Below are positions 22,517-35,240 of a stretch of 64,000 bases of DNA, piece after piece; within the stretch, counting starts at the first letter, position 1; each line of letters starts with the position of its first letter. Source of the stretch: a virus (Duplodnaviria > Caudoviricetes); the IMG/VR virus record IMGVR_UViG_3300020365_000001. The stretch is one strand, 5' to 3'. A program made the translations under genes and the position numbers. A model generated the notes under the pieces. The model was not told where the DNA came from. It did no database searches and was given only the letters and a program-made list of their open reading frames with translations.

Positions 22517-23295
22517 CAACATTAGTCACGATTGGTTGCTCATGGGTCAAAGGTGTTGGTGCAGCATATTCCTGCAAGAACCCAGATGATAAAGACACCT
22601 ATCAGAGTTATCGAGGCATAACGCCCCATAATGCCCCCTATGCCTGGCGAACACTTTTAGCAAAGAAGTATAACTTAGAACAACATAACCTCGCAAAAGG
22701 TGGTTCTGCTAATAAAACACAGTTCCGTCTTGCAACAGAATACTTCAATACAGTAGAAAATCCAGAAGACATTATCGTCCTATGGGGTATCACATCTATC
22801 CATAGAGACGAACTCTTCTTCAATAATATCGATAAGTATAGAGCATTCATTTTCAATCGCCATACTAAACGTCAAGAACCGTGGGAGAGAAGATCCAGGT
22901 TCAACGTCATCAATCACTTTGAAAGACACTTCAATGAAAAGAATGAATACTACCAACTTGCAGAAAATATCAAACATTGGCAGAAGTACTTTGACCTGAG
23001 GGGCATCCGCCATAAATGGTTCGATACTCTAAACCCCACAAACACCATCCATAAGAACGCCATAGTATTCCCACATGAGGGGATGCCCGACCTGATGTCC
23101 CAAATGACCGCAGAGGTTTCCGGTGAACCATGTCATGGAGATCAAATGCACTTCTCTAATTGGCTCGTAGACTCTTCAAGAATACAAAAACTCCTAGACC
23201 ATAACGTAGTCAACCCACACTCTCTCCACCCCTCTCAAGAAGGTTCTATAGTTATCGCCAACCTCCTTGACCAACATGTAGCATCTATGCTATAA
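22513..23295 (+). CDS. SGNH/GDSL-like protein 4
   Basis: TIGCSWVKG, GSAN, SLHPSQEG. Confidence 0.78.
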   Translation: MTTLVTIGCSWVKGVGAAYSCKNPDDKDTYQSYRGITPHNAPYAWRTLLAKKYNLEQHNLAKGGSANKTQFRLATEYFNTVENPEDIIVLWGITSIHRDELFFNNIDKYRAFIFNRHTKRQEPWERRSRFNVINHFERHFNEKNEYYQLAENIKHWQKYFDLRGIRHKWFDTLNPTNTIHKNAIVFPHEGMPDLMSQMTAEVSGEPCHGDQMHFSNWLVDSSRIQKLLDHNVVNPHSLHPSQEGSIVIANLLDQHVASML

Positions 23296-23317
23296 TCTTA
23301 TCACATCACTGATTGCC

Positions 23318-23548
23318 ATGTCTGAAACCACAGAGAGTAAATATAGTCCTGCACACTATCAACAAGGTAATATTCAAGTATGGGACTTCATCGCTGATCA
23401 GAACTTAGACTTCTTCTGTGGTAATGTCGTAAAGTACATCTGTCGGGCAGGTCATAAACCTCATGAATCCCAAATGGATGACCTCCGTAAAGCACAAGTG
23501 TATATTGAAAAAGCAATATTACTTGCATCTCAGTCCAGAAATCGCTAG
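23318..23548 (+). CDS. DUF3310 family protein (T7 gp1.7 nucleotide kinase-like)
   Basis: PAHY...GNVVKYICRAGHK...DLRKA pattern. Confidence 0.85.
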   Translation: MSETTESKYSPAHYQQGNIQVWDFIADQNLDFFCGNVVKYICRAGHKPHESQMDDLRKAQVYIEKAILLASQSRNR

Positions 23549-23587
23549 ACTAAGATCTAAATACTTTGATCAACTGCTGTTCTCCCC

Positions 23588-23857
23588 ATGAAGAAATGTG
23601 AGAAATGTGGTGCTACCTGGATGGAGGGTCAACTCTATTGGCAAGGTACTGGCAAACCTGGTAAAGATATAGACCTCGCTGGTCTTGTCTGCAATAACAT
23701 CAGACAAGATGACCCTGACTCCGATAAATGTATCAACCCTTCCCGTGGTCAACTCGGAGGAGATACTTGGGATTACCGTCGTGGTTTCGTAGATGGTGCT
23801 CTCTCAACACTCAAAAAAGAAAAAGAAGATCTTCGTGATCGCTTCGGTGACTTATGA
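23588..23857 (+). CDS. Hypothetical protein with CxxC
   Basis: 89 aa; CEKCGATW...DLAGLVCN...CINP; TAAATA at 23558-23563. Confidence 0.75.
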   Translation: MKKCEKCGATWMEGQLYWQGTGKPGKDIDLAGLVCNNIRQDDPDSDKCINPSRGQLGGDTWDYRRGFVDGALSTLKKEKEDLRDRFGDL

Positions 23858-24021
23858 AATATATCATTGAATACCAGGATCAATTCTTCAAGTGGCATCG
23901 CTATGGCGAGTCCCATAACGTGACATCTGCTTCCAATACCGCAAAAATCCGTTCCGTACAGTCCGGTAAGAAGTTCAGAGTCACTCAAAACGCCCAACTC
24001 ATAGAAATCTTCTACCCTTGA
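23854..24021 (+). CDS. Hypothetical protein (55 aa)
   Basis: Not in track; MKYIIEYQDQFFKWHRY...IEIFYP; ATGA overlap. Confidence 0.7.
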   Translation: MKYIIEYQDQFFKWHRYGESHNVTSASNTAKIRSVQSGKKFRVTQNAQLIEIFYP

Positions 24022-24045
24022 TATGACTGGATAGTTGAACACTTC

Positions 24046-24077
24046 TCCCCCCTCGAAAGGTACGGGGGGATTTTTTT
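24046..24077 (+). terminator. Rho-independent terminator
   Basis: TCCCCCC...GGGGGGA stem followed by T7. Confidence 0.8.
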
Positions 24078-24363
24078 ATGGGCAAAATTTTTCTAAGGGC
24101 ACTTTTAGGGGTGGGAAAAAAATTTTGATATTGATATCTTTCGTGCTCTGGGAAACGTTTGTAGGTTAGAAAGAAGGTACTTTTTTGCAACGGGCTCCGC
24201 CCGCCACAACAATAAGGGGCAAATAACTGTCCCTAAGTGTTACTAACTGTTCACGGAGTTTGTGTTAGATAGGGGGCACGATTGTTGGCAGTTGGTGTGA
24301 GGAACTGTGTGCCCCTTATCTATCACTGAGTGCTGTGTGATTCCCCCTGTGTTCGTTACAACG

Positions 24364-24422
24364 AGTATAAGCGATTTTCACGGGGTCTGTGTGACTGTTT
24401 GTGCCACTTTGTAGACCGTCAC
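24364..24422 (-). promoter_or_regulatory. Early-type promoter (palindrome plus TATACT) with no credible downstream ORF
   Basis: gtgcca-N10-cgtcac 24401-24422; agtata 24364-24369; same spacing as the other early promoters. Confidence 0.6.
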
Positions 24423-24459
24423 TAACACTAACTGTTTCGCAAGTGTGTGAACTTTGGGG

Positions 24460-24488
24460 TTGTAATCTGTGTGGAACTGTGATAGAAT
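24460..24488 (+). promoter_or_regulatory. Sigma70-like promoter
   Basis: TTGTAA-N17-TAGAAT with extended TG. Confidence 0.6.
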
Positions 24489-24494
24489 GGGAGA

Positions 24495-24630
24495 AAAAAG
24501 TGTGAGGGTCTGAGTGTTACTTAGTGGGTCTCATAGTGTTTCACGGTGTCTCATAGTGCGACCGCTAAGGTAACAACAACCACGAGGATAATGGACGACT
24601 AAGTAACACTCACGATCCTTATACGAAAAA
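24495..24630 (+). ncRNA. Candidate structured non-coding RNA
   Basis: 24500-24525 pairs with 24598-24624 (15 perfect bp plus 11 bp with 3 G-U pairs), directly downstream of the sigma70-like promoter. Confidence 0.5.
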
Positions 24631-24673
24631 GACATATATTTATTCACACATTTTTATTATCATTCAATTTTAG

Positions 24674-24713
24674 AAATATACCCCATTGAAGTGCATCAAC
24701 GGGGTGCATATTT
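24674..24713 (-). terminator. Hairpin, probable terminator of the early operon
   Basis: Minus strand ACCCCGUUGA-UGCACU-UCAAUGGGGU then AUAUUU. Confidence 0.45.
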
Positions 24714-24807
24714 AGTAGACTTTTATACACCTTCATTGTTAGCAAACTATTAGTTTTACCAATGGTTTTGTGTACCTTAGTTGATGCTAACTGATGGTGT
24801 GCGCGTT

Positions 24808-24990
24808 TCATACATTCTCCAACAATTTGATCACGTTACTATCTAGATTCTCTTGAAGATTATTTTCTTCGAGTACATCTAGGAAATGTGGTTCATGATA
24901 GTTTGACTGATCATATTGGAAGTCATTTTCATACTCATCCCATGCATCGTTGATGTTAGTTTGTGCGTTGAAATCGTTCATGATAATCAA
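24808..24990 (-). CDS. Hypothetical early protein
   Basis: 60-aa acidic ORF in operon context. Confidence 0.6.
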   Translation of the reverse strand: MIIMNDFNAQTNINDAWDEYENDFQYDQSNYHEPHFLDVLEENNLQENLDSNVIKLLENV

Positions 24991-25202
24991 TAGCGAGAGG
25001 GGATACGATTGAGGTCGATAGATGATACACAGAACCCAGCAGATTCTGTGATTTGATCAACTACTTCATCCTCATCTTCTGCGAAATAAACTGTTGCTAA
25101 TGTGGCATTGATTATGCCTTGTTGAAATTGCACTGGCAACTCAAAATCACCATCTACAAAATCAAACTGAATGGAGTCAACAACGTAGCGATTTTGTGTC
25201 AT
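24987..25202 (-). CDS. Hypothetical early protein
   Basis: 71 aa; IQFDF...DQITESAGFCV. Confidence 0.7.
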   Translation of the reverse strand: MTQNRYVVDSIQFDFVDGDFELPVQFQQGIINATLATVYFAEDEDEVVDQITESAGFCVSSIDLNRIPSRY

Positions 25203-25336
25203 GAATCAGAAGAAAGTTGGTTGTCTAGTTTTGTTTGAATAGAGTCAAATAACTCCATTTCATCATCAGTGAAGTCAGAGAACATTTGCTCCATACAATA
25301 ATAGATTAGAGCACGTTCTTCGTTGGTGATATACAT
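25199..25336 (-). CDS. Hypothetical early protein (45 aa)
   Basis: Not in track; MYITNEERALIYYCMEQMF...; ATGA overlap. Confidence 0.6.
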   Translation of the reverse strand: MYITNEERALIYYCMEQMFSDFTDDEMELFDSIQTKLDNQLSSDS

Positions 25337-25344
25337 TTGAATGA

Positions 25345-25692
25345 TCAGGCGAAAGTATAACCAGTGCGGAAAAGATTGTTTTGGAATACATCTTCGCCGT
25401 TGATTGTGCCAACAAACTGTCTCACATACCAGGTGAAATCTTTCTGGAATACACCTTCACCTGCCATGCAGAATTCTTCACAGATAGCATTGAGGCGAGA
25501 TTTTGTGGTGTTAGTTTGCCATCCACCATCGAAGATTTCTACGTCATTATCAGAAACAATGGCGATAAGATTGTCATGCAGATAAACAGTAGTGGTGCCG
25601 TATTCTGCATTGAAGTGAACACTAGTGTTGCCAGATTTCCAAGTTTCGTTGTTCTTGATGGCGGCACACATTTGCTTTTCGATCTTACGCAT
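25345..25692 (-). CDS. Conserved cyanophage early hypothetical protein
   Basis: Start at MRKIEKQM with AGGAG upstream; DGGWQTNTTKSRLNA. Confidence 0.8.
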   Translation of the reverse strand: MRKIEKQMCAAIKNNETWKSGNTSVHFNAEYGTTTVYLHDNLIAIVSDNDVEIFDGGWQTNTTKSRLNAICEEFCMAGEGVFQKDFTWYVRQFVGTINGEDVFQNNLFRTGYTFA

Positions 25693-25697
25693 GGTGG

Positions 25698-25782
25698 TGA
25701 ACTCCTGTGTTTGTTTGTTGTACCAACAATAATCGATTTTGGACCCTAAATCATTTCCATGTGCCACTTTTATAGGTGACCA
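25698..25782 (-). promoter_or_regulatory. Early promoter/leader cassette
   Basis: gtgcca at 25761, TATTGT at 25726-25731; 42 bp nearly identical to 27283-27324. Confidence 0.7.
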
Positions 25783-25894
25783 CTAATTCCTCCAAACGAG
25801 CAATTTTCTGTTCTAGATTCTCTATCGAGCGTTCTAGATTCTTGATGTGATCAACTATAGAAAGTTGATCATATAACGGATCATTTCTGTTCAT
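25751..25894 (-). CDS. Hypothetical coiled-coil protein (47 aa)
   Basis: Not in track; MNRNDPLYDQLSIVDHIKNLERSIENLEQKIARLEE. Confidence 0.55.
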   Translation of the reverse strand: MNRNDPLYDQLSIVDHIKNLERSIENLEQKIARLEELVVTYKSGTWK

Positions 25895-26084
25895 TTTGCT
25901 CCAACAAATGTGGATAGTATTCTTTCACTTCTTCGATCAATTCATCGACCGAATAACTATCATAACTGTTGCTCATGTTGTCATAAAGAATTGCCATCAT
26001 AGTTTTGATGTCCATGTCGTCCAAAATTTGGTTGATCATGTCATCTTGTAGTTGATCCCGATCGATGATATTATCCTTATTCAT
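25881..26084 (-). CDS. Hypothetical early protein
   Basis: 67 aa; ILDDMD...EVKEYYPHLL. Confidence 0.75.
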   Translation of the reverse strand: MNKDNIIDRDQLQDDMINQILDDMDIKTMMAILYDNMSNSYDSYSVDELIEEVKEYYPHLLEQNEQK

Positions 26085-26278
26085 TCTGCTGCCTCGTCAT
26101 AGATTTCATAGAACATATTCCATGCTTTTAGATCACTCACAAAAGAACTAATTTCTGCTTGATCACTAACCCAATCATATGCCATATCAATGTCGGCATT
26201 ATTATCAAGAATGAAAGATTGCAATCCTTCGAGTGCATCCAAGAATTTTGGATTGTTGTAAACAGCAGCAATAGACAT
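26081..26278 (-). CDS. Hypothetical early protein
   Basis: 65 aa; ATGA overlap. Confidence 0.7.
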   Translation of the reverse strand: MSIAAVYNNPKFLDALEGLQSFILDNNADIDMAYDWVSDQAEISSFVSDLKAWNMFYEIYDEAAE

Positions 26279-26311
26279 GATGTTAGATAAGAAAAGAACA
26301 GTTAGTGATAA

Positions 26312-26578
26312 TCAGCAGAAACAAGGCATATACTCAGCGCGAGGCATTTTGTCGGTGTTGAAGTGTGTAACTGTTGCACCCTTAGCAATTCTTGCTTGCC
26401 AATCATATTTTGCTTCAATACCTAAAACAACGCTATAAGATTTCTGACCAGTAGCACGGAAATGAACGCGACGGATGAAACGTTTCACCACAACTTTCAT
26501 ACCTTTGTTCTCATCTGCCTCAGCAATAAATGCTTCGGGAAAGTAATCAACAATGGTGGCAGAATTGGTCACTTGCAT
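26312..26578 (-). CDS. Hypothetical early protein
   Basis: 88 aa; own TTGACA-N17-TAATTT promoter at 26609-26637. Confidence 0.75.
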   Translation of the reverse strand: MQVTNSATIVDYFPEAFIAEADENKGMKVVVKRFIRRVHFRATGQKSYSVVLGIEAKYDWQARIAKGATVTHFNTDKMPRAEYMPCFC

Positions 26579-26652
26579 GAATTGAACTCCGTTGCTTTTG
26601 ACTCTTCTAAATTACAGGAGACGCAGGATGCTGTCAAGTATCAAATGATACA

Positions 26653-26820
26653 TCAAAAGACATTGGTCCATTTGTGATGCTTTGCTTCAGTGATATTTCC
26701 CTCCGCTAACAAGTTATCGCAAACATTGCAGAAAACTTGAAACTTTTCTACTTTGCTCAATGCTTTACCATCAGCACATTCTTTGATGGTTTGGATGATA
26801 ATTGCTTTTGAAGTAATCAT
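26653..26820 (-). CDS. Hypothetical early protein (55 aa)
   Basis: Not in track; MITSKAIII...FCNVCDNLLAEGNIT...WTNVF. Confidence 0.7.
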   Translation of the reverse strand: MITSKAIIIQTIKECADGKALSKVEKFQVFCNVCDNLLAEGNITEAKHHKWTNVF

Positions 26821-26858
26821 GATTTTGTGAAAAGAATTGGGTGGGAGTTAGTGTTAGT

Positions 26859-27074
26859 TTACCAGAAACATCCTTGGTGACGAGCATCAAGCATGTCAAC
26901 ATATTTCTGCCAAAGTATTTCAATTTCACCCACAGTTTCAGACAATTTCAGCAGATATTCGTCATCAGGATTCTCTACTTTCGCATAAGCATCAAGCGCC
27001 TGACCATAATACTTTCGAGCATTGATTAGGTCCGTTGCATAATCATTACCGGTGACACGTTGAAGAGTAAACAT
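26859..27074 (-). CDS. Hypothetical early protein
   Basis: 71 aa in operon context. Confidence 0.65.
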   Translation of the reverse strand: MFTLQRVTGNDYATDLINARKYYGQALDAYAKVENPDDEYLLKLSETVGEIEILWQKYVDMLDARHQGCFW

Positions 27075-27107
27075 GATGAAAAAAGAGTGATGGTTGACTG
27101 TAAAGAA

Positions 27108-27278
27108 TTAGCAGGAAACTTCCATCCATTCAATATCATTACGAGCAACAATCATTGTTTTTCCATGCTCTTCAACACTCCAAGTGTAAGCAACATCTAC
27201 GGCATGATGTTCGCTGGTGAAATACTCAGCATCGAATTGTTCGCCCTTAGGGTACACTGACCAAGAAACAAATGCCAT
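27108..27278 (-). CDS. Hypothetical early protein (56 aa)
   Basis: Start at MAFVSW with AGGAG upstream. Confidence 0.7.
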   Translation of the reverse strand: MAFVSWSVYPKGEQFDAEYFTSEHHAVDVAYTWSVEEHGKTMIVARNDIEWMEVSC

Positions 27279-27282
27279 TGAT

Positions 27283-27367
27283 TGAACTCCTGTGTTTGTT
27301 TGTTGTACCAACAATAACCGATTTCAGATGCTGTGCACGTTTATTATGCCACTAAAACATCTGGCAC
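27283..27367 (-). promoter_or_regulatory. Early promoter/leader cassette
   Basis: atgcca-N10-tggcac 27346-27367; TATTGT 27311-27316. Confidence 0.75.
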
Positions 27368-27571
27368 ATCGGTATCATCGAAATCAGCAACATCTTCGGG
27401 CATAGGCATATCATCAATGCCAGGATCATACCAGTCTGATGCATACATAATCGCATCTTTCATCTGCTCTAATTCATCCTTACGTTGCTGCATTTTGTCG
27501 ATCTGTTTATCAATCAATGCAAGGCGAATCATCACAGTGTCGAGATCCATTCCATCGTAAGTTTCGGTCAT
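27344..27571 (-). CDS. Hypothetical early protein
   Basis: Likely start MTETYDG; coiled coil plus acidic tail. Confidence 0.6.
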   Translation of the reverse strand: MTETYDGMDLDTVMIRLALIDKQIDKMQQRKDELEQMKDAIMYASDWYDPGIDDMPMPEDVADFDDTDVPDVLVA

Positions 27572-27634
27572 AATTGTTTTACCTTTGAGTGCGTGAAAAC
27601 GTGGTTGTTTTTGAATAATAGACATAAACTTTCC

Positions 27635-28078
27635 TCAGAGATAGAGATAACCGCCCGACCAATCTGCACGGGCAAAACATTCTTCACGGGATGCAATGTT
27701 CAGAAGATTGAAACGCACAATCTTTGCAGGTGATTTGAATGATGCTGGTTTGTATACTTCACCAGTCTTTTTATCAACAAAAGCATGAACAGAAAGTTGA
27801 TTGCCAGTGTTCATTACAATTTTGTGATACTTTCGCCCACCTTCTTCAATATAAAAATCATAATCACAAATGCCATTCTTCAGTTCTTCAATGGTATCTT
27901 TATGATAACTGCCGATCTCATTACCTTCAGAAATTGCACGCTTGTGATGCTTTATGCAACGCTCAATATAGTTCATTTTGAGTGTTTCGCAGAGCATCAA
28001 AGTGTACTTACGAACATTCAACTGAATTGTGTTCTTTGCATCCTGTTGTGCAACGAAATCGGCGAAGTCAGTTTTCAT
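27635..28078 (-). CDS. Conserved phage hypothetical protein
   Basis: 147 aa; GRKYHKI, SVHAFVDKKTGEVYKPAS, ADWSGGYLY. Confidence 0.85.
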   Translation of the reverse strand: MKTDFADFVAQQDAKNTIQLNVRKYTLMLCETLKMNYIERCIKHHKRAISEGNEIGSYHKDTIEELKNGICDYDFYIEEGGRKYHKIVMNTGNQLSVHAFVDKKTGEVYKPASFKSPAKIVRFNLLNIASREECFARADWSGGYLYL

Positions 28079-28156
28079 TGAAGTTTCTCAACTGTTGATA
28101 CAATACATGAAATAAGTCTCAGTGCACGTTTATTGTGCCACTAAAACTATTGTCAC
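28077..28156 (-). repeat. 80-bp promoter/leader repeat, copy 1
   Basis: 74/80 identical to 28436-28515. Confidence 0.9.
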
Positions 28157-28434
28157 TTCACATACTCTAATTTCTTGGCATTTGTCACGGAGAAGTTATT
28201 ATAGTCGCTCATACTTACTGACACGTTATTAGGAAGAACGCTAAAATCTTCCCGTAGTTGCCAGAAACCGTCACCCTGTACGATAACAGCGAAACCGAAA
28301 CATCCTGCCATTGGCATCATATAAAGACCATGCTTTTCTGCTTCTTTTAGACTACAAAACCCGCGAGCAGTTATTGTCCATGTAATGCCAAATTGATCAC
28401 CACCAAAATAAGCACAAACGAATTCAGTAGGCAT
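28153..28434 (-). CDS. Hypothetical early protein
   Basis: 93 aa, flanked by the 80-bp direct repeats. Confidence 0.7.
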   Translation of the reverse strand: MPTEFVCAYFGGDQFGITWTITARGFCSLKEAEKHGLYMMPMAGCFGFAVIVQGDGFWQLREDFSVLPNNVSVSMSDYNNFSVTNAKKLEYVK

Positions 28435-28435
28435 G

Positions 28436-28515
28436 ATTGAAGTTTCTCAACTGTTGATACAATACATGAAATAAGTTCTAGTGCACGTTTATTGTGACAC
28501 TAGAACTATTGGCAC
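28436..28515 (-). repeat. 80-bp promoter/leader repeat, copy 2
   Basis: Contains gtgaca-N10-tggcac (28494-28515) and TATTGT (28459-28464). Confidence 0.9.
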
Positions 28516-28521
28516 ACGGTG

Positions 28522-28659
28522 TTAGTTTGTGACGTAGATGTTCCTCGCATTGGTATACTTTGCTTCCATCAATTTGATGGCGTGATGAATACTCACAGCG
28601 GTGAAACTTTCTTCGATTCGGTAACCCTCAACGAGAGCACTTACGATGAATTGTCTCAT
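28522..28659 (-). CDS. Hypothetical protein (45 aa)
   Basis: Not in track; MRQFIVSALVEGYRIEESF. Confidence 0.65.
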   Translation of the reverse strand: MRQFIVSALVEGYRIEESFTAVSIHHAIKLMEAKYTNARNIYVTN

Positions 28660-28811
28660 TCTAGATCTCCTGGTAAAAACTCTTGAAATTCGTGAAAATA
28701 GTAGTCTTCAGTGATACCGAACTTTTCGCAAAGAAACTTCACTGAATCATAACTTTCCTGATCCATTTCAACAACGAAATGTTCAGTTTCAACGGTGATT
28801 ACATCATTCAT
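28656..28811 (-). CDS. Hypothetical protein (51 aa)
   Basis: Not in track; MNDVITVE...CEKFGITEDYYFHEF; ATGA overlap. Confidence 0.65.
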   Translation of the reverse strand: MNDVITVETEHFVVEMDQESYDSVKFLCEKFGITEDYYFHEFQEFLPGDLE

Positions 28812-28847
28812 GGTGAAATTTGAGTACAATGACAATATATCAGAGTC

Positions 28848-29471
28848 TTAGATAAATTGTAAGACTCCTGTGACACTTTGCGAAGCGTCTTTCTTACTAA
28901 CTCGTTGTTTTGCTCGTTGATACAATGCTTGATCACTTTCACATCCCCAGTAATGACGACCGAGACGTTTTGCACTCACAGCAGTATCACCATCTCCCAT
29001 GAATATATCAAGCACAGTATCACCAGGGATAGTATATGCGTTGATTAGTAGTTCATCAAGAGATTGACGAGATGTAGATGAATGGACGCAAGTGTAGTGA
29101 TCACTATCATTTTTGTAAGTGAAATCCTTGCCCTTTGAGTAACACCAAGCATGTTGATGTTTGTGTGCAAAGTTCTTCTTACTACGACGACCAGTTCTAC
29201 ACTCAAACACGATCTCATTCTGCTCTGTTAGTTGTTTGTTACGATTCAGAGCATACTTATACACTAAGAACGATTCATTCTTGAGTGTTCCCCACACAAT
29301 CATCATCCCATTGGGTTTCAATACACGCACACATTCTGTGGTCCATTTCATACACCAACTGAGATACTTTTTACCTCCACCAGGTGGAGGTTCAGTGAGG
29401 ACGAGATCAACAGAATTGTCCTTCAATTTACTGAGAAACTGTAAACAATCCTTGTGCTGTAATTTATTCAT
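28848..29471 (-). CDS. Degenerate beta-class N6A/N4C DNA methyltransferase, probably catalytically dead
   Basis: DCLQFL...SVDLVLT-EPPP (for DPPY), RVLKPNG, GDTVLDIFMGDGDT (for DPFxGSGTT), no HPTxKP; only 207 aa. Confidence 0.8.
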   Translation of the reverse strand: MNKLQHKDCLQFLSKLKDNSVDLVLTEPPPGGGKKYLSWCMKWTTECVRVLKPNGMMIVWGTLKNESFLVYKYALNRNKQLTEQNEIVFECRTGRRSKKNFAHKHQHAWCYSKGKDFTYKNDSDHYTCVHSSTSRQSLDELLINAYTIPGDTVLDIFMGDGDTAVSAKRLGRHYWGCESDQALYQRAKQRVSKKDASQSVTGVLQFI

Positions 29472-29998
29472 AAGTTGGCATACAATGACTTCATGAAGGG
29501 AAAGTCTTGGGGGAATCCATCAAGGAAAAATGTACCTGAGTTCACGGTTTTACCACCATGTTGGTTGTACTTCCAGAACCCATTCTCATCTTGTGCTGAC
29601 ACGAACTCATCAACTTCTTGTTTGGTTGATGAATACATCTCAACACGATCAGGATACATTGCCAGGAAGATAATCACATCATAGTCTTGACTAGTGCGAA
29701 TTTGTTGCCAACGAAACTGATCACCACCACCCCACAACATCGATCCTTTGATTTCACATCGACGACCGTTGATGATACGATCGTATTCACTTTGTTTTGG
29801 ACGAGTAACTGCGAACCCAAGATGTTTGCAGTATTCACTAACAAGTTGCTCAAAGAACTTTCCCTTGCGTTTGCTACTCATTTCTTTGTAGACACGAAAG
29901 GGAGAATCAATGTAGAGATCAGCATCACGATCATTCAATGCATCATCGTGAGTCTGATAACTTTCAATGAACTGAGCAGGAATCGTGGTGTCAATCAT
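29468..29998 (-). CDS. Type II restriction endonuclease-like PD-(D/E)xK nuclease, MseI-like (predicted TTAA)
   Basis: KGKFFE...YDRIING...EIKGS intact; SPF, FRWQQIR..QDYD and QHGG match my recollection of R.MseI; ATGA-coupled to the MTase; TTAA not found in the window. Confidence 0.8.
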   Translation of the reverse strand: MIDTTIPAQFIESYQTHDDALNDRDADLYIDSPFRVYKEMSSKRKGKFFEQLVSEYCKHLGFAVTRPKQSEYDRIINGRRCEIKGSMLWGGGDQFRWQQIRTSQDYDVIIFLAMYPDRVEMYSSTKQEVDEFVSAQDENGFWKYNQHGGKTVNSGTFFLDGFPQDFPFMKSLYANL

Positions 29999-30018
29999 GA
30001 TACTTTACTTAGGAATGT

Positions 30019-30351
30019 TCAGGACAGATCGATAACACCTGTTTTTTCGTCATTTCTAAACGGGAAAGCGACCGTGGCACCCTTACCCGTTTCCTTGGAC
30101 GAAAATTCTTGTTTGTGCAGTGGCACCACCACACTATTCCATGCTTTGATGTGAGAATTTTCCAGTTTTTGTTGCATATACGATGCAACACCTTCAATGC
30201 ACATGGCAGAGTTCAGAATTTCATCTGAATCACACTCATCACACAGTTTTTCGTTCAATTCGTGAAGCATTTGCTCAACGATCTTCAGTTGTGTGATGAC
30301 TTCATCCACGTCATTCATCACGGTCCACACCTGTTCGTAATCTAATGACAT
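30019..30351 (-). CDS. Hypothetical protein (110 aa)
   Basis: Start at MSLDYEQVW; helical. Confidence 0.7.
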   Translation of the reverse strand: MSLDYEQVWTVMNDVDEVITQLKIVEQMLHELNEKLCDECDSDEILNSAMCIEGVASYMQQKLENSHIKAWNSVVVPLHKQEFSSKETGKGATVAFPFRNDEKTGVIDLS

Positions 30352-30370
30352 GATAAAGATAAAATAAGAG

Positions 30371-30399
30371 AAAAAAAATGCCACCGGTGTGGTGGCATT
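30371..30399 (-). terminator. Rho-independent terminator
   Basis: Minus strand AUGCCACC-ACACC-GGUGGCAU then a U run. Confidence 0.85.
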
Positions 30400-30420
30400 A
30401 TGAACCTGATCAGAGAGTGA

Positions 30421-30642
30421 TCAGACAGCAACCTGCTGGAGGTTGCCCTCACGGCGGTACTTAGCAATCAGGCGACCAACCGACTCGCCTTTGGCGATGG
30501 TGGTCTCAAGGTCGGAGCGAAGGACGGAAGCATCCTTAGCAACGAAGTCATAAGCGGTGTCCTTAGAGGTGAACTGGACAGACACAGCGTTGTCGGTACC
30601 GAAGTCGATAGCAGCGATTGCGGAAGAACCAGTGATGTTCAT
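30421..30642 (-). CDS. Small KTSC-like protein
   Basis: 73 aa; SSAIAAIDF...VQF...Y...SVGRLI resembles the KTSC pattern. Confidence 0.55.
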   Translation of the reverse strand: MNITGSSAIAAIDFGTDNAVSVQFTSKDTAYDFVAKDASVLRSDLETTIAKGESVGRLIAKYRREGNLQQVAV

Positions 30643-30716
30643 GATGAAAAAGTGAAATGTAAGTTGGAGCAGTGACGATCTTTTGGTGGGGCGGCGTCTC
30701 TCCCCTTGTTGTCCTA

Positions 30717-30774
30717 ATTATAGCGCCTGATCAACCTGGCGCTCTTGGATGGGTGACAGTTCGTCATCTGGCAC
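30717..30774 (-). promoter_or_regulatory. Early promoter
   Basis: gtgaca-N10-tggcac 30753-30774; TATAAT 30717-30722. Confidence 0.75.
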
Positions 30775-30903
30775 ATCCTCGTTGACTCCAATCATGGATT
30801 CGTAGTAGGTGTCATAGTCGATGCCGATGTAGCGGGCGAGTTCTTCGTAGTCATTGTGACAGCGCAGTTCTCGTTGCAGTGCAAGGTAATCGGAGAGATC
30901 CAT
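30718..30903 (-). CDS. Hypothetical protein (61 aa)
   Basis: Start at MDLSDY; DYEELARYIGIDYD. Confidence 0.65.
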   Translation of the reverse strand: MDLSDYLALQRELRCHNDYEELARYIGIDYDTYYESMIGVNEDVPDDELSPIQERQVDQAL

Positions 30904-30925
30904 GGAAGCAATGAGGCAGACAGTA

Positions 30926-30957
30926 ATCTTAGCACGGGTTGAGACATTTCTCAACCC
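30926..30957 (-). promoter_or_regulatory. Sigma70-like promoter overlapped by a perfect palindrome
   Basis: TTGAGA-N17-TAAGAT; GGGTTGAGA-catt-TCTCAACCC at 30936-30957. Confidence 0.55.
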
Positions 30958-30995
30958 TTATTCTGTTTGCCTCATAACACTGAGGCGTATGTTAT

Positions 30996-32099
30996 TTAGA
31001 TAGACTCATCTTCAACAATGTCCACATGTTCATCCAGTTTAGTATACAACTGCATGAATGACAGTTTGGTATCATCATCGAAACGATTCAAGCACATTTC
31101 GATTGCTTTCATCTTGTCACCAAAGATGCTATATGCTCGCACAATATGCACCAGGCGACGAGTTGAAATAATTTCATCGATGCCACCATCATTGAATGTT
31201 TTGCGTACAATGTCTGCCCAATCTACAAGATGCTTGTAGAAGTCAGTATGATCACCAGTAGCAGGAATGTTGAGAGATTCAGCAACATTAGCGAGAATCT
31301 TCTTCTCTACTGCTGGTGTTGGATACTGTTGCTCGAAGGTGATAGGGAATCGCTCAAGAAATGCTTCATTGAGAACATTTGTGCCAATGAATCGTCCATC
31401 ATCAGAACCCTTACCTTTTGTGTTGGCAGTAGCAACAACATTGAAACCAGGTGCTGGTTTGATATGTTCACCGATCTTCTTCAGGAAGACACCATTACCT
31501 TCGAGAATAGATTGCAGGCACAAAATCTTATTTGATGCCAGGTCAATCTCATCTAGCAGCAACAATGCTCCACGTTCCATTGCATCAACAACAGGACCAT
31601 TATGCCAGACAGTCTCACCATTTACCAGGCGGAAACCACCGATAAGATCATCTTCATCCGTCTCAATAGTGATATTCACACGGATACATTCTCTGCCAAG
31701 TTGTGCACATGCTTGCTCAACACCAAATGTTTTACCATTACCAGACATGCCAGTAATAAACACTGGATAGAACTGGTGAGATTGAACAACTTTCTTCAGG
31801 TCAGTAAATCCACCAAAGGTAACAAAAGTATTATCTTTGGTAGGAATCAGCGACTCTTTAGTTTTAGTCTGAACTGGTGTCTCTTTTACATCATACTGAA
31901 CACTACCATCAGGATTAGCGGTAGATGTTAGAGTCCACTGCCCTCGCTTGGTTTTATACTTGTTCAGATACTTGGTGAGTGTCTGATAACCAACGTCATG
32001 AGATTCGCAGTATTGCCTAACAATCGTGGCATCAATAGCATTGCCATAAGTGTCACGCAGTTGCTGAATGTGGTGGTCACCGTTGATAGTCCGTGGCAT
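30996..32099 (-). CDS. cobS: CobS/MoxR-like AAA+ ATPase
   Basis: GMSGNGKT (Walker A), LLLLDEID (Walker B), TDEDDLIGG, NEAFLERF, ISTRRL. Confidence 0.93.
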   Translation of the reverse strand: MPRTINGDHHIQQLRDTYGNAIDATIVRQYCESHDVGYQTLTKYLNKYKTKRGQWTLTSTANPDGSVQYDVKETPVQTKTKESLIPTKDNTFVTFGGFTDLKKVVQSHQFYPVFITGMSGNGKTFGVEQACAQLGRECIRVNITIETDEDDLIGGFRLVNGETVWHNGPVVDAMERGALLLLDEIDLASNKILCLQSILEGNGVFLKKIGEHIKPAPGFNVVATANTKGKGSDDGRFIGTNVLNEAFLERFPITFEQQYPTPAVEKKILANVAESLNIPATGDHTDFYKHLVDWADIVRKTFNDGGIDEIISTRRLVHIVRAYSIFGDKMKAIEMCLNRFDDDTKLSFMQLYTKLDEHVDIVEDESI

Positions 32100-32120
32100 T
32101 GCTTTGTTTGAACTGAAGTT

Positions 32121-32179
32121 AGTATAAGGGATGAATGGGTGGGGTGAGGTGGCGATTGTGCCACCTCTATAAGTGGTCA
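32121..32179 (-). promoter_or_regulatory. Early promoter
   Basis: gtgcca-N10-tggtca 32158-32179; TATACT 32121-32126. Confidence 0.7.
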
Positions 32180-34288
32180 GGCGACCATTTCTACAAACTG
32201 TTTGGTGATATACTTGTTACTTTTCTTGTTTTTGAACATTTTACGAAATGCTTTACTAACATCTTTCTTCTCACTGCTAGTAACATCTAGTGTGTCATCT
32301 TCGCACAAGTTCCTGTTAGGAATACCAAACCACTTGTCGAAACCATTAGATGTGAAAGATACACTGCCATGCTTCTTCAATTCAGAACGCATTTGATCGT
32401 AGTTCTCATAACTATCTGTTGCATACCAACGATAGAAGTTACTCATCTCAGATCCGTGCAAGATTCTGAATGAAACTATGTTGCAGTTGTTGTTATCACG
32501 CTTTATTGCGCGAACGAGCGCGTCGGTAACGGACGGACCCATGCCATCGATATTGAAAGTCTTGCTTTTGTGGCGAATAACAGTATTATGGCGCACGGGA
32601 ATGTGACACTTACGCTCGCGATCATCGTATCCCATACGAATCACATTGTATCCCAATTCATTACCCTCACCATCAGTCAGGTACACAACATTACATTTCT
32701 GAGTCTTAGTCTGCTGTTGGAACTTCTTCACAATTTGATTCATACACACCAGGGACTCATTGATAGGTGTGCCAGACAATTCCATGCCCAAAGGTGACAA
32801 CATGTTCCTCAAAGTATGCACAACCTTCCATACATTCAGCAGTTGATCTTCAAAGTCTTTTGTCTTCATATTGCTGCTGATAAGATTCATCAACCGGAAG
32901 GTATCTTGAATCTTGATGTCATGCAACTTCCATTCTTTTACTGGTTTGCGTGACTCATAATCTTCCTGCATCTTCCATGCTTCATTAGTGAAAGCATAAA
33001 CTTCAAAGGGAATGTTTACCTTACGGCAGAACCACACCAGTTGAAACAGTTGTTTGATAGTAGGCAACATTTCATCTGCCATAGATCCACTCCAGTCAAG
33101 TACAAACAACAGGGAGTGATTCTTACCATCAGTAGTTGTTGCTACTTTACGGAACACATCTTCATTGTATTTGTATGAATGAAGTTTACCAGTGTCAAGT
33201 ACACCAGTGCGAGAGACTGTGGTCCTTGCATATGCATCAGCAGACTTACGCATTTCAAACTCTTTTACCAACAAATTCACATCACGTTGTGCACTTGTCT
33301 TGAATTGTTTGAACTCAGTGCGCTTCTGCTCATTCCACTGTTGGATAACATCCTCGCGATCACTATACTTTTGTCCGAGAACTCTACCAAAATGGTCCTC
33401 TACATGCGCCTTGATCTTATCAACAGGAACGATAACATTCTCAAGCACAACATCAGGCATCGTCACATAAACAGGACGCTTGGCATGTTGATTGCGAAGA
33501 TCTTCTAGGTTCTTATCATATGCTTTCTGGGTTGCAGATTCATCATCATTCTCCTCAACGTTGCCATCATTACATGCTTCAGTATCATCGTCATCATATT
33601 CTTCAGACTCAACATCACTGAAGGCATCACTATCACCAGGTTCCTGCTCATCTTCAGGAGACTGATCCATAGTTGTTTCACCATCACCAGGTGCACTGTT
33701 CTGTGGTGGTTGTGGCATAGGTGTAGATTCTTGCTGCTGTTCCTTACTCAGCAGATAACATGCTAGGGAGAGATCAAGAACTTCTTCAAATGTTTCAGCG
33801 TTGCTGATACTGGTGACCAGTTCATTCTCACGATCATTGAAATCAATGTCATAGAATGTACCGACCTTGAAGTATAGATTCACACGGTCGATGAATGACA
33901 GTTGATTCACATCTTTCTGTGAAATCTCGAAGAAGTCCTTATCATTCAGATAACGGTATCCTTTGAAGAAATCCCTGTTCATGCCAGGATACCGCTTCTT
34001 CATCAACTTCTCGATGCGAGCATCTTCTACCACGTTGACATAATCACCAGGAACTTTCCTGTATTTGTCTTCACGTTTCCAGTCACGCAATTCTGTAAAC
34101 AATGCATGTCCTACCTCATGAGCAACCAGCATGTCATAAACATATGCTGGAACATTGTCCCAAATAGGTAGAGTCAAGACGCGACCATCAATGTCAAAAG
34201 ATGCTGTTGACACCTGGCGGTGTTCTACGATAAGATTCTCAGTTGCCAGGAGTCTGGCAAGCATCCCTTGAATTTCAGTGGTCGCCAT
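32177..34288 (-). CDS. CobT-like protein: HExxH metallopeptidase-like domain, acidic linker and vWA domain
   Basis: HEVGH, NVVEDARIE; MIDAS LDWSGSM, GTP, LTDGE. Confidence 0.88.
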   Translation of the reverse strand: MATTEIQGMLARLLATENLIVEHRQVSTASFDIDGRVLTLPIWDNVPAYVYDMLVAHEVGHALFTELRDWKREDKYRKVPGDYVNVVEDARIEKLMKKRYPGMNRDFFKGYRYLNDKDFFEISQKDVNQLSFIDRVNLYFKVGTFYDIDFNDRENELVTSISNAETFEEVLDLSLACYLLSKEQQQESTPMPQPPQNSAPGDGETTMDQSPEDEQEPGDSDAFSDVESEEYDDDDTEACNDGNVEENDDESATQKAYDKNLEDLRNQHAKRPVYVTMPDVVLENVIVPVDKIKAHVEDHFGRVLGQKYSDREDVIQQWNEQKRTEFKQFKTSAQRDVNLLVKEFEMRKSADAYARTTVSRTGVLDTGKLHSYKYNEDVFRKVATTTDGKNHSLLFVLDWSGSMADEMLPTIKQLFQLVWFCRKVNIPFEVYAFTNEAWKMQEDYESRKPVKEWKLHDIKIQDTFRLMNLISSNMKTKDFEDQLLNVWKVVHTLRNMLSPLGMELSGTPINESLVCMNQIVKKFQQQTKTQKCNVVYLTDGEGNELGYNVIRMGYDDRERKCHIPVRHNTVIRHKSKTFNIDGMGPSVTDALVRAIKRDNNNCNIVSFRILHGSEMSNFYRWYATDSYENYDQMRSELKKHGSVSFTSNGFDKWFGIPNRNLCEDDTLDVTSSEKKDVSKAFRKMFKNKKSNKYITKQFVEMVA

Positions 34289-34309
34289 GTCTGTGTTTCA
34301 ACTGAAGTC

Positions 34310-34367
34310 AGTATAGTCCTCAGGGTGCCGGATGCTCTCCCGGCGATGACGCTTCTGAAACTGGTAC
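34310..34367 (-). promoter_or_regulatory. Early promoter (degenerate palindrome)
   Basis: TATACT 34310-34315; atgacg-N10-tggtac; leader aactgaagt(c/t)agtata shared with the cobS promoter. Confidence 0.6.
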
Positions 34368-34694
34368 ACGCTTGACGATCTGTTTAGAGATGTTGGTGTA
34401 GGGTGCTGGGGTGAGTTCGATTGATCCGGTTCTAATGGATTCTTTAGATTCTTTCTTGAGTGATGCTGCCAGTTTGGAACCATCATGCGGCAATACCTCC
34501 TGATCTACTCTCACACATATATTTACATCTCTCACAGGTGGCACTGTGCCAGTACCTCTACATACACACACTGTCATGCCATATGTTGAGAAGAATGTAA
34601 CAATGCCATAGTGTCCACCAACCTGCACTACATCACCAACACTCCATTCATTTTCTTCATAGATTTCTTTGATAGAGTTCCACTCAGGCATCAA
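34320..34694 (-). CDS. Hypothetical protein
   Basis: 124 aa; ATGA overlap with the upstream gene. Confidence 0.6.
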   Translation of the reverse strand: MMPEWNSIKEIYEENEWSVGDVVQVGGHYGIVTFFSTYGMTVCVCRGTGTVPPVRDVNICVRVDQEVLPHDGSKLAASLKKESKESIRTGSIELTPAPYTNISKQIVKRVPVSEASSPGEHPAP

Positions 34695-35206
34695 TCTCTT
34701 CTCCGTATTTGATCAAGTTTCTGTGCATGAATTTCCTCTGGATAGGAATAGTATTTGAACTCAATCCAATTATCCCATGGATCTTTTATTGTGGTGCGAT
34801 GACACCTAACATTTTGCCCATGTAAATGTGCCTCACTTGGATCTATCTTTTTAGGTACCAAGAAGTTGTACTTACTATCAATTACATTGATCTCAGGATG
34901 ATCCTTGCAATGATTCACAACCTCAAAGTATTCTTTCTTATCCAAGAAGACAGGACCATTATGTCTTGGCAACCTTGAATGTTGCTGAGGTACAGATGTT
35001 TCTCCTTGCAGTACACTTATGTGGTGACCAGCAAATGAAAAGATGAACCCAGGATTGTGTGACCCATCTTCAACATTGATAGCAAATCTTTGACAGAATC
35101 TACAACCAAGCACATCACAATACCATCTGATTCCTTCCTCAATGTCAGGAATAGTGAACGCCATGTGCCATATCGTTTTGGTATGACTGTCAGCGAGGAT
35201 TGTCAT
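34691..35206 (-). CDS. VOC/glyoxalase-superfamily protein
   Basis: WHMAF...WYCDVLGC, FAGHH, PRHNG, DPWDNWIEFK. Confidence 0.85.
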   Translation of the reverse strand: MTILADSHTKTIWHMAFTIPDIEEGIRWYCDVLGCRFCQRFAINVEDGSHNPGFIFSFAGHHISVLQGETSVPQQHSRLPRHNGPVFLDKKEYFEVVNHCKDHPEINVIDSKYNFLVPKKIDPSEAHLHGQNVRCHRTTIKDPWDNWIEFKYYSYPEEIHAQKLDQIRRRD

Positions 35207-35240
35207 CGACTAACTACATCTGTCACTAATTTATTATATC

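What the first reader, a model, noticed from the sequence alone, without database searches (positions are those of the whole stretch)
28848..29471. Methyltransferase degenerate at every key motif but still an open frame
Motif IV reads EPPP instead of DPPY and the following loop is short. The target-recognition region and HPTxKP are missing. Motif I reads DIFMGDGDT. The 207-codon frame nevertheless stays open with the Rossmann scaffold intact. Several in-frame losses without a stop suggest a retained non-catalytic role, such as nuclease inhibitor or timer, SAM sink, or decoy. Alternatively the frame is kept for coupling and for the promoter motif embedded in its 3' end (28870-28891).
Basis: partly seen in the sequence, partly recalled or inferred. 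Interest (0 to 1): 0.7.

Follow-up and report, generated by a model that had tools for sequence, protein, structure and literature searches.

The report
Dead methylase in phage restriction cassette
A marine cyanophage keeps, under clear purifying selection, a methyltransferase gene that has lost its catalytic and DNA-reading parts; it sits behind a restriction-type nuclease, and the phage genome contains no TTAA site at all, so methylation was probably no longer needed for self-protection.

Summary
Window 28848-29471 (-) encodes a 207-aa PF01555 beta-class DNA amino-methyltransferase homologue. Compared with intact 239-295-aa cyanophage relatives:
- DPPY reads EPPP.
- 14 residues after motif IV and the 35-residue target-recognition segment are gone.
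- WHPTTKN reads VHSSTSR, and GSGST reads GDGDT.
- "Every key motif" overstates it: the FxGxG glycines, D8, H130 and E178 survive, and the fold models confidently.

It is not a pseudogene. Five distinct alleles have no stop or indel, and dN/dS is 0.12-0.20, as for the neighbouring gene.

The upstream ORF176 (ATGA overlap) has a PD-(D/E)XK nuclease fold. In relatives it is coupled the same way to an intact methylase; other relatives have no methylase.

TTAA counts track this state:
- 0 of 194 expected in the window, 0 of 322 in 112 kb, and zero wherever the methylase is dead or absent.
- O/E 0.03-0.67 where the methylase is intact.
- O/E 0.75-1.03 in seven cyanophages without the nuclease.

Best reading: this is the disabled M subunit of a phage TTAA restriction-modification cassette, made dispensable by site purging but kept for an unidentified non-catalytic role.

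Two first-reader notes on this same genome proposed site avoidance. I tested it here. The scan has no such note on other DNA.

The parts
28848..29471 (-). 207-aa degenerate beta-class DNA methyltransferase homologue (the finding)
   Evidence: ORF. PF01555 at 96 bits. Alignment A1 with intact relatives. Model pLDDT 88.5. Foldseek matches to M.RsrI, M.BceJIV and M.MboIIA. dN/dS 0.12-0.20.
29382..29393 (-). Eroded motif IV: E27-P-P-P30, where relatives have DPPY (EPPS in the other alleles)
   Evidence: Position 30 varies (P/S) within the degenerate clade.
29103..29108 (-). Junction (residues 122|123) where 35 residues of the target-recognition segment are missing
   Evidence: Single clean gap in A1 against all intact relatives. 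M.MboIIA residues about 135-188 have no counterpart.
29067..29087 (-). VHSSTSR, replacing the conserved WHPTTKN (HPTxKP) motif; only the His is kept
28983..29009 (-). Motif I, DIFMGDGDT: FxGxG glycines kept; S160D in the whole degenerate clade, S162D only in this phage and L007
   Evidence: Equivalents S198 and T200 of M1.HpyAVI contact the AdoMet carboxylate (PMC5173035).
29468..29998 (-). ORF176: PD-(D/E)XK restriction-type nuclease homologue, the upstream partner gene
   Evidence: phrog_6927. Invariant K45, E50, D73 and E82-x-K84 in 39 homologues. Model pLDDT 93.5. VIA Z 11.2 to I-Ssp6803I and 9.8 to NhoI, then Hjc, PvuII, NaeI and EcoRV. dN/dS 0.14.
29468..29471 (-). ATGA overlap: the ORF176 stop and the methylase-like start share 4 bases
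   Evidence: The same 4-base overlap occurs in L015, L016, L022 and L032; L033 has a 1-base and L035 an 8-base overlap.
28834..28876 (-). Early-promoter-like element for the next gene: GTGTCAC half-site (28870-28876, inside codons 199-201) and TATATT (28834-28839, after the stop)
   Evidence: The half-site is identical in all five alleles. Relatives have GTGACAC-N7-GTGTCAC-type dyads right after the stop of the preceding gene.
1..64000 (.). Genome-wide absence of TTAA (context that makes methylation dispensable)
   Evidence: 0 observed against 194 expected in the window. 0 against 322 in the 112-kb near-identical record G001.

Best explanation
The ORF is the disabled M gene of a two-gene restriction-modification-type cassette carried by T4-like cyanophages. 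The cassette is a PD-(D/E)XK nuclease (ORF176) followed by a translationally coupled beta-class adenine methyltransferase. In most carriers the methylase is intact.

In this lineage every TTAA has been purged from the phage genome. The phage therefore offers no target to its own (inferred TTAA-specific) nuclease, and self-methylation became dispensable. It may even have been harmful, since an active methylase would also shield host or competitor DNA. The methylase then lost the catalytic Asp and Tyr, the loop after motif IV, the DNA-contacting hairpin residues, the target-recognition segment and most of HPTxKP.

The remaining Rossmann core is still translated and is kept by purifying selection. 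It must do something non-catalytic, and I cannot say what. My guess is a structural or regulatory accessory of the cassette that helps but is not essential, because relatives in the same clade have deleted it.

Shown: degeneracy, intact fold, purifying selection, cassette conservation, and the link between TTAA counts and methylase state.
Inferred: loss of activity, TTAA specificity of nuclease and methylase, the order of events, and any present function.
For: 1. Degenerate but folded. Motif IV consensus is (D/N/S)PP(Y/F/W); the first residue acts on the amino group and the aromatic stacks on the target base (PMC7544214).

2. Selection. NG86 dN/dS is 0.12-0.20 for all pairs with dS 0.08-0.54 (bootstrap 95% interval 0.12-0.31), equal to ORF176 at 0.14. 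Binomial p = 1.5e-9. Of 99 columns that are at least 90% conserved in 38 intact relatives, 64 are unchanged. These conserved columns vary less within the clade than the other columns (10/99 against 25/108, p = 0.015). The 25 fixed changes cluster at motif IV, residues 91-95, E106Q, 129-135 and S160D.

3. Cassette. An ORF172-178 plus an intact 239-295-aa PF01555 gene with overlapping stop and start occur in L015, L016, L022, L032-L036 and one contig without DNA. The nuclease fold and catalytic residues are supported.

4. TTAA observed/expected:
- Nuclease with dead or no methylase: 0/194, 0/322, 0/52, 0/51, 0/30, 0/13, and S-ShM2 0/173, S-RIM14 0/97, S-SSM2 0/75.
- Nuclease with intact methylase: O/E 0.03-0.67 in seven loci.
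- No homologue: O/E 0.75-1.03 in seven cyanophages. S-PM2 (0.87) and S-BM3 (0.12) were isolated on the same host strain, WH7803.

5. The ORF176 tree places the dead-methylase clade with two methylase-less lineages in one clade (99/97). All other members of the 11-row clade have intact methylases.

6. Relative rate. dN(methylase)/dN(nuclease) is about 1.0-1.15 in the degenerate clade. It is about 0.55-0.92 among intact pairs (one outlier at 2.41). Constraint is relaxed but far from lost.
Against: - No activity was measured, so loss of methylation is inferred from motifs only.
- TTAA specificity of ORF176 rests on correlation across perhaps three independent contrasts. A host TTAA restriction system, countered either by a phage methylase or by site purging, would give the same first two tiers.
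- Two lineages in the same clade and the Ahtivirus phages live without the gene, so whatever it does is dispensable. That fits a slow loss as well as a function.
- I found no partner or ligand.
- Part of the beta-class dimer-interface motif lies in the deleted segment.
- The nearest genome held is only 59% complete, so an intact methylase elsewhere cannot be excluded.
Confidence: 0.55

Rival explanations
1. It is a gene on its way out. Once methylation was no longer needed the gene began to decay. The lineages without it show the end point, and the apparent constraint reflects limited time or weak residual effects such as the cost of a misfolded product.
For: The gene is cleanly absent in L017-L021, in the same clade (ORF176 78-80% identical), with the same flanking genes. 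Former active-site positions 30, 89, 107 and 162 still drift within the clade. The rate relative to the nuclease is 1.5-2 times that of intact methylases.
Against: dS reaches 0.4-0.54 between alleles, yet there is no stop or indel, and dN/dS is 0.12-0.20, like intact relatives (0.11-0.17) and the neighbouring gene. Syn/nonsyn binomial p = 1.5e-9. Structurally conserved columns are still preferentially kept.
Confidence: 0.15
2. It is still an enzyme: a minimal methyltransferase with an unusual motif IV. It would act on a different substrate (non-specific DNA, RNA, protein or a small molecule), or use the nuclease for targeting.
For: FxGxG, D8, H130 and E178 are kept. Purifying selection is as strong as on intact enzymes. 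Small beta-class enzymes with a short disordered TRD exist (M1.HpyAVI, PMC5173035).
Against: There is no aromatic residue in motif IV, and that position varies P/S within the clade. Also D27E, E106Q, loss of the hairpin residues and the whole TRD, and S160D (plus S162D here) at AdoMet-carboxylate contacts. The only well-known EPPx beta-class protein, MettL14 (EPPL), is the inactive subunit (PMC7544214).
Confidence: 0.12
3. The frame is kept for cis reasons only: translational coupling to ORF176 and the promoter element of the next gene inside its 3' end.
For: ATGA overlap. The GTGTCAC half-site inside codons 199-201 is identical in all alleles, with TATATT 30 nt downstream.
Against: Cis constraints do not lower dN relative to dS over 200 codons. 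dS is normal (0.40-0.54 against 0.47-0.53 in the neighbour). In L017 the promoter dyad follows ORF176 directly, and in L020 ORF176 is coupled straight to the next gene, so neither needs this ORF.
Confidence: 0.05
4. TTAA purging is driven by a host TTAA restriction system, not by ORF176. The intact phage methylase is an anti-restriction device, it died here after the sites were purged, and ORF176 is an unrelated nuclease that merely shares the operon.
For: This explains zero TTAA without a methylase and tolerated TTAA with one. S-ShM2 and S-SSM2 were both isolated on WH8102, so host and nuclease are confounded there.
Against: All 15 or more sampled carriers of close ORF176 homologues are TTAA-depleted, and none of seven non-carriers is. 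S-BM3 and S-PM2 share host WH7803 but differ (O/E 0.12 against 0.87). The pairing of a nuclease-fold gene with a methylase, with overlapping stop and start, recurs across different phage backbones as in a classic R-M operon. The WQQIR motif is kept in TTAA-depleted homologues and replaced in ACG-2014f, which has normal TTAA.
Confidence: 0.25

Closest known systems
Intact cyanophage beta-class 'DNA adenine methylase' (Synechococcus phage S-BM3 SBM3_00150 / WDS61229.1, and metagenomic P0003-P0120)
   Same: Same family, with 41-46% identity by BLASTP (49-56% over aligned columns). Same genome neighbourhood (CobT-like peptidase / CobS module). In many metagenomic relatives, the same coupling behind an ORF176 homologue.
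   Different: The relatives have DPPY, a full loop, the TRD, HPTTKN and GSGST, and are 239-295 aa. This protein lacks all of these.
Solved beta-class N6-adenine methyltransferases: M.RsrI (1eg2), M.MboIIA (1g60), M.BceJIV (8urk), M1.HpyAVI (5hfj), CcrM (6pbd)
   Same: Same fold (Foldseek E about 1e-15, TM 0.70-0.77) and same order of motifs.
   Different: No catalytic Asp or aromatic residue, and no TRD (about 52 residues of M.MboIIA have no counterpart). Part of the dimer-interface motif is deleted.
MettL14 (with MettL3) and ciliate MTA9 (with MTA1): inactive beta-class subunits
   Same: Eroded motif IV starting with Glu (EPPL in MettL14; EPPP/EPPS here) on a preserved methyltransferase fold under selection (PMC7544214).
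   Different: Those proteins work as obligate partners of an active paralogue encoded by the same genome. No active PF01555 or PF02086 gene was found in 112 kb of this phage, and no heterodimer could be tested.
Virus-encoded restriction-modification systems of chloroviruses and marseilleviruses
   Same: A virus carries a prokaryote-type nuclease-plus-methylase pair. It is used offensively, against host DNA (chloroviruses) or co-infecting competitors (marseilleviruses) (PMC7253447).
   Different: Those viruses protect themselves by methylation with a functional methylase. Here protection appears to come from complete absence of the site, and the methylase is disabled.

Membership tests
Active beta-class N6A/N4C DNA methyltransferase (PF01555) | Significant match to PF01555 and a Rossmann-type methyltransferase fold | tested here: met
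   96 bits against a cut-off of 26.7. Model pLDDT 88.5. Foldseek matches to M.RsrI, M.BceJIV and M.MboIIA at TM 0.70-0.77.
Active beta-class N6A/N4C DNA methyltransferase (PF01555) | Motif IV (D/N/S)-P-P-(Y/F/W) | tested here: not met
   EPPP here and EPPS in the other alleles. Consensus and residue roles are from PMC7544214.
Active beta-class N6A/N4C DNA methyltransferase (PF01555) | Target-recognition segment between motif VIII and motif X | tested here: not met
   35-residue gap against all intact relatives. M.MboIIA residues about 135-188 are unmatched.
Active beta-class N6A/N4C DNA methyltransferase (PF01555) | AdoMet-binding residues (FxGxG; acidic residue at the end of beta-2; N-terminal Asp; His of HPxxKP; Ser/Thr after the glycine loop) | tested here: inconclusive
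   F157, G159, G161, D8, H130 and E178 are kept. S160D in the whole degenerate clade and S162D in this phage and L007 fall at carboxylate-contact positions. D27E falls at the Asp whose Ala mutant abolishes binding in M1.HpyAVI. Binding was not measured.
Active beta-class N6A/N4C DNA methyltransferase (PF01555) | Methyl transfer to DNA | not testable with these tools
   Needs an enzyme assay or a methylome.
Type II restriction-modification cassette | Adjacent, co-oriented nuclease and methyltransferase genes in one operon | tested here: met
   ATGA overlap here. The same pairing recurs in relatives on several backbones.
Type II restriction-modification cassette | Nuclease with PD-(D/E)XK fold and catalytic D...E-x-K | tested here: met
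   D73 and E82-x-K84 are invariant. VIA Z 11.2 and 9.8 to I-Ssp6803I and NhoI. Foldseek matches to EcoRV and PvuII. Cleavage was not tested.
Type II restriction-modification cassette | Functional cognate methyltransferase protecting the carrier's DNA | tested here: not met
   The methylase motifs are eroded in this phage. No other PF01555 or PF02086 gene was found in G001, 112 kb and 59% complete.
Type II restriction-modification cassette | Nuclease and methylase share one recognition sequence | not testable with these tools
   Only indirect evidence: TTAA O/E is 0 without a live methylase, 0.03-0.67 with one, and 0.75-1.03 without the nuclease.
Inactive partner subunit of a beta-class heterodimer (MettL14 / MTA9 type) | Eroded motif IV on a conserved fold under selection | tested here: met
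   PMC7544214.
Inactive partner subunit of a beta-class heterodimer (MettL14 / MTA9 type) | An active paralogue encoded in the same genome, with heterodimer formation | tested here: inconclusive
   None was found in the window or G001, but the genome is incomplete.
Pseudogene | Frame disruption, or neutral evolution (dN/dS about 1) | tested here: not met
   Five distinct alleles have no stop or indel. dN/dS is 0.12-0.20, p = 1.5e-9.

The most novel reading that the evidence does not exclude
A lytic cyanophage runs a restriction system without modification. A TTAA-cutting nuclease serves as an offensive weapon against host or co-infecting phage DNA, and self-immunity comes from purging every TTAA from a genome of at least 112 kb. 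The former cognate methylase has been converted into a selected, non-catalytic protein. It might act as a partner of the nuclease, or as a subunit that poisons TTAA methylases of hosts or competitors (beta-class enzymes act as dimers).
Probability: 0.3. Interest if true: 0.8.

Novelty: new variant of a known kind. Interest (0 to 1): 0.6.

Why it matters
Restriction-modification systems are taught as inseparable pairs, because the nuclease is lethal without its methylase. These cyanophage relatives show graded states:
- intact methylase with sites tolerated;
- intact methylase with sites nearly gone (L033, 3 of 113 expected);
- dead methylase with zero sites;
- no methylase with zero sites.

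This suggests that a virus can replace modification by complete site avoidance and keep the nuclease. That would explain why some abundant marine phages lack one tetranucleotide entirely. It also gives a direct, cheap prediction: ORF176 cuts TTAA.

The dead methylase itself is a rare prokaryotic-virus candidate for a selected pseudo-methyltransferase, parallel to MettL14. It is a tractable case for asking what such relics do.

Tried and rejected
- The genome search on the window's own assembly: not held. On L001's 150-kb contig: not held.
I counted in fetched stretches instead.
- The search of 1.84 billion representatives found no second, independent short or degenerate clade. The degenerate form is one 50% cluster.
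- P0378 (221 aa) is a small relative with an intact DPPY and HPTQKP, so it is not a parallel case.
- The 276-aa forms of ORF176 carry an N-terminal extension of about 100 aa that is unrelated to the methylase. They are not a fusion with a methylase remnant.
- The gene after the S-ShM2 ORF176 homologue is DUF7717, not a diverged methylase.
- PDB sequence search with ORF176 gave only chance hits.
- Literature searches for cyanophage TTAA or palindrome avoidance found nothing relevant.
- The generic sigma-70 promoter scan was not enriched over shuffles (11 against 8.8).
- The win-L007 pair (dN/dS 0.51) rests on six differences and is uninformative.

Full report
**What is there.** Window 28848-29471 (minus strand) is a 207-codon ORF. 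Its product matches PF01555 N6_N4_Mtase at 96 bits (cut-off 26.7) and phrog_67. The window belongs to a T4-like cyanomyovirus. It carries baseplate wedge, tail and carbamoyltransferase genes and a CobT-like/CobS module. The closest isolate for this gene is Synechococcus phage S-BM3, Kyanoviridae.

**The observation.** I aligned the protein with 12 intact relatives of 242-251 aa. Identity is 41-46% by BLASTP and 49-56% over aligned columns. Compared with them:
- TDPPY reads TEPPP.
- 14 residues after motif IV are missing.
- YNWGG reads CRTGR.
- KHEYAW reads KHQHAW.
- One clean 35-residue gap removes the segment between motifs VIII and X. In beta-class enzymes this is the target-recognition region.
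- WHPTTKN reads VHSSTSR.
- GSGST reads GDGDT.

The FxGxG glycines, D8, H130 and E178 are kept. In M1.HpyAVI the equivalents D8, H168 and E216 bind AdoMet, and D29A or E216A abolishes binding (PMC5173035). Here the D29 equivalent is Glu. The equivalents of S198 and T200, which contact the AdoMet carboxylate, are Asp160 and Asp162 in this phage and L007 (Ser162 in the other relatives).

Motif IV is defined as (D/N/S)PP(Y/F/W): the aromatic stacks on the target base and the first residue acts on the amino group (PMC7544214). The protein should therefore not methylate adenine or cytosine amino groups. This is an inference. The fold is intact, with an AlphaFold model at pLDDT 88.5 and pTM 0.86. Its top structural matches are M.RsrI, M.BceJIV, M.MboIIA, M1.HpyAVI and CcrM, at TM 0.70-0.77.

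**It is not a pseudogene.**
- The same 207-aa form occurs in eight further contigs from independent samples, giving five distinct nucleotide alleles. None has a stop or an indel.
- Nei-Gojobori dN/dS is 0.12-0.20 for every pair with dS between 0.08 and 0.54. The bootstrap interval for window against L001 is 0.12-0.31. The neighbouring ORF176 gives 0.14.
- The excess of synonymous differences has binomial p = 1.5e-9.
- Intact relatives give 0.11-0.17.
- Relative to the partner gene, the degenerate methylase changes about 1.0-1.15 times as fast. Intact methylases change about 0.55-0.92 times as fast, with one outlier. Constraint is somewhat relaxed but far from lost.
- Of 99 columns that are at least 90% conserved in 38 intact relatives, 64 are unchanged in all degenerate alleles, 25 are changed and fixed, and 10 still vary.
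- The fixed changes cluster at motif IV, residues 91-95, E106Q, 129-135 and S160D. The still-varying ones include the old catalytic position 30 (P/S), W89F, Y107H and S162D.
- In short, the scaffold is conserved while the former active site drifts.

**The partner gene and the cassette.** The ORF's ATG overlaps the stop of the upstream ORF176 (29468-29998) in ATGA.
- ORF176 has no Pfam family and belongs to phrog_6927.
- Across 39 homologues, K45, G46, E50, D73 and E82-x-K84 are invariant.
- Its model (pLDDT 93.5) matches PD-(D/E)XK nucleases. VIA Z is 11.2 to I-Ssp6803I and 9.8 to NhoI, followed by Hjc resolvases, PvuII, NaeI and EcoRV. Foldseek agrees.
- In more distant relatives (ORF176 52-60% identical), the same gene is followed, with overlapping stop and start, by an intact PF01555 gene of 239-295 aa. 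This is seen in L015, L016, L022, L035, L036 and one contig without DNA. In L032-L034 two methylases follow.
- Lineages in the same clade (ORF176 78-80% identical; L017-L021) keep ORF176 and the same downstream genes but have no methylase gene. So does S-ShM2, where a 32%-identical homologue sits directly before DUF7717.
- ORF176 stays under purifying selection there (dN/dS 0.07-0.16).
- The ORF176 tree groups the dead-methylase alleles with the two methylase-less lineages (support 99/97). All other members of the 11-row clade have intact methylases.

**The missing tetranucleotide.** Two first-reader notes on this same genome (e1-5750267, e1-5750259) proposed self-protection by site absence, so I tested it. 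With a maximal-order Markov expectation, TTAA observed/expected falls into three tiers:

| Group | TTAA observed/expected |
|---|---|
| ORF176 with dead methylase | window 0/194; G001 (112-kb near-identical record) 0/322; other dead-methylase loci 0/52, 0/51 and smaller |
| ORF176 with no methylase | L017 0/30; L018 0/29; L019 0/15; L020 0/13; S-ShM2 0/173; S-RIM14 0/97; S-SSM2 0/75 |
| ORF176 with intact methylase | L022 25/41; L035 65/98; L016 3/8; L032 29/138; L015 9/59; S-BM3 10/85; L033 3/113 (O/E 0.03-0.67) |
| No ORF176 homologue | S-PM2, Syn9, P-SSM2, S-SM1, S-SM2, Syn19, S-RSM4: O/E 0.75-1.03 |
| Distant or partial homologues | S-SSM4 O/E 0.94; ACG-2014f O/E 0.88 |

- S-PM2 (0.87) and S-BM3 (0.12) were isolated on the same host strain, WH7803, which argues against a purely host-driven cause.
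- ACG-2014f lacks the WQQIR motif shared by all TTAA-depleted homologues.

The simplest reading is that ORF176 is a TTAA-specific restriction-type nuclease and the intact methylase is its cognate protector. On that reading, sites were purged progressively even while the methylase was alive (L033). Once no site was left, methylation was dispensable. This rests on correlation over perhaps three independent contrasts. A host TTAA system countered by a phage methylase or by purging remains a rival (I give it about 0.25).

**What the dead methylase does now.** This is the weak point.
- Selection shows that the protein matters.
- The methylase-less relatives show that it is not essential and that the nuclease does not need it. 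This argues against an antitoxin-like inhibitor.
- Two extra Asp at the AdoMet-carboxylate contacts argue against a SAM sink.
- A cis-only explanation fails. The promoter-like half-site GTGTCAC (28870-28876) and its TATATT (28834-28839) are real and invariant among alleles, but they cover only the C-terminal tail. dS is normal over the whole gene.
- A MettL14-like role needs an active partner. None was found in 112 kb of the phage, and that genome is only 59% complete.
- Part of the beta-class dimer-interface motif lies in the deleted segment.

I therefore commit only to 'selected, non-catalytic accessory of the cassette, conditionally useful'. I note that losing activity could itself be favoured, because an active TTAA methylase would also protect the DNA that the nuclease is meant to destroy.

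**Comparison with what is known.** By sequence and fold the protein belongs to PF01555. It fails two defining features of an active member, motif IV and the TRD.
- The nearest functional parallel is the set of eroded-motif-IV subunits MettL14 (EPPL) and MTA9 (PMC7544214). These have an active paralogue beside them.
- Virus-borne restriction-modification pairs used against host DNA (chloroviruses) or competitors (marseilleviruses) are known (PMC7253447). In both cases the methylase is functional.
- I found no report of TTAA avoidance in cyanophages.
- The 1.84-billion-protein search showed the degenerate form to be one narrow clade.

**Verdict.** The interpretation 'retained non-catalytic role' is supported in general but not in its specifics. 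The more interesting result lies around the finding: a phage restriction cassette whose self-protection seems to have shifted from methylation to total site absence.

I rate the novelty as a new variant of a known kind and the interest as 0.6. Confidence in the composite explanation is 0.55. The parts differ: degenerate and selected is about 0.9, a TTAA cassette about 0.7, and a present non-catalytic function about 0.55.

Noticed in passing
window 1-64000 (and G001): All four RGCY tetramers are depleted. In the window AGCT is 19/141, GGCC 7/57 and AGCC/GGCT 17/179 (about 7-10-fold). In G001 AGCT is 44/258 and GGCC 23/99 (about 4-6-fold). CAATTG (0/15) and CTGCAG (0/13) are absent from the window. 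This suggests pressure from further restriction specificities.
   Followed up: partly
L023-L031, L038, L039 against the window: CCGG is completely absent from sampled stretches of S-ShM2, S-RIM14, S-SSM4, S-BM3, S-PM2, P-SSM2, S-SM1, Syn19 and S-RSM4 (expected 10-28). It is at normal frequency in this phage (87/86; G001 166/163) and in ACG-2014f.
   Followed up: no
L025 (S-SSM4 70000-99999) and L031 (S-SM1 70000-99999): S-SSM4 has no TCGA (0/64) and carries a partial, 37%-identical ORF176-family homologue. S-SM1 has no GTAC (0/90). Other cyanophage lineages may use the same site-absence strategy for other tetranucleotides.
   Followed up: no
L032 10828-12488; L033 and L034 10537-12257: Here the ORF176 homologue is followed by two PF01555 methylases. 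The second (288-318 aa) has an SPPY motif IV, typical of N4-cytosine enzymes, so the cassette can carry a second specificity.
   Followed up: partly
L035 4365-5754 and 11548-12102: The same nuclease-methylase cassette (169 aa plus 295 aa) occurs in a different phage backbone that also encodes a SAM lyase (PF23780), glutamine synthetase and a NUDIX/zeta-toxin-like protein. TTAA is only mildly depleted (65/98) and GGCC is absent (0/33).
   Followed up: no
L017 4532-4600; L015 about 5735-5760; window 28834-28891: Palindromic GTGACAC-N7-GTGTCAC-type dyads sit right after the stop of the preceding gene, about 30 nt upstream of a -10-like box. In intact methylase genes the TGA stop lies inside the first half-site. 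In the degenerate clade only the second half-site survives, inside the coding tail.
   Followed up: partly
L012 2420-2932 (S-BM3): The S-BM3 ORF176 homologue has a stop upstream of the region aligning to residue 28. It is annotated as only 113 aa, starting after the conserved K45/E50 region, so it may be truncated. S-BM3 keeps an intact methylase elsewhere and has TTAA at O/E 0.12.
   Followed up: partly
P0127-P0149; L032 10001-10831: A common 276-aa form of the ORF176 family carries an N-terminal extension of about 100 aa of unknown nature, before an internal Met that matches the usual start. It may be a gene-calling artefact or a real extra domain.
   Followed up: partly
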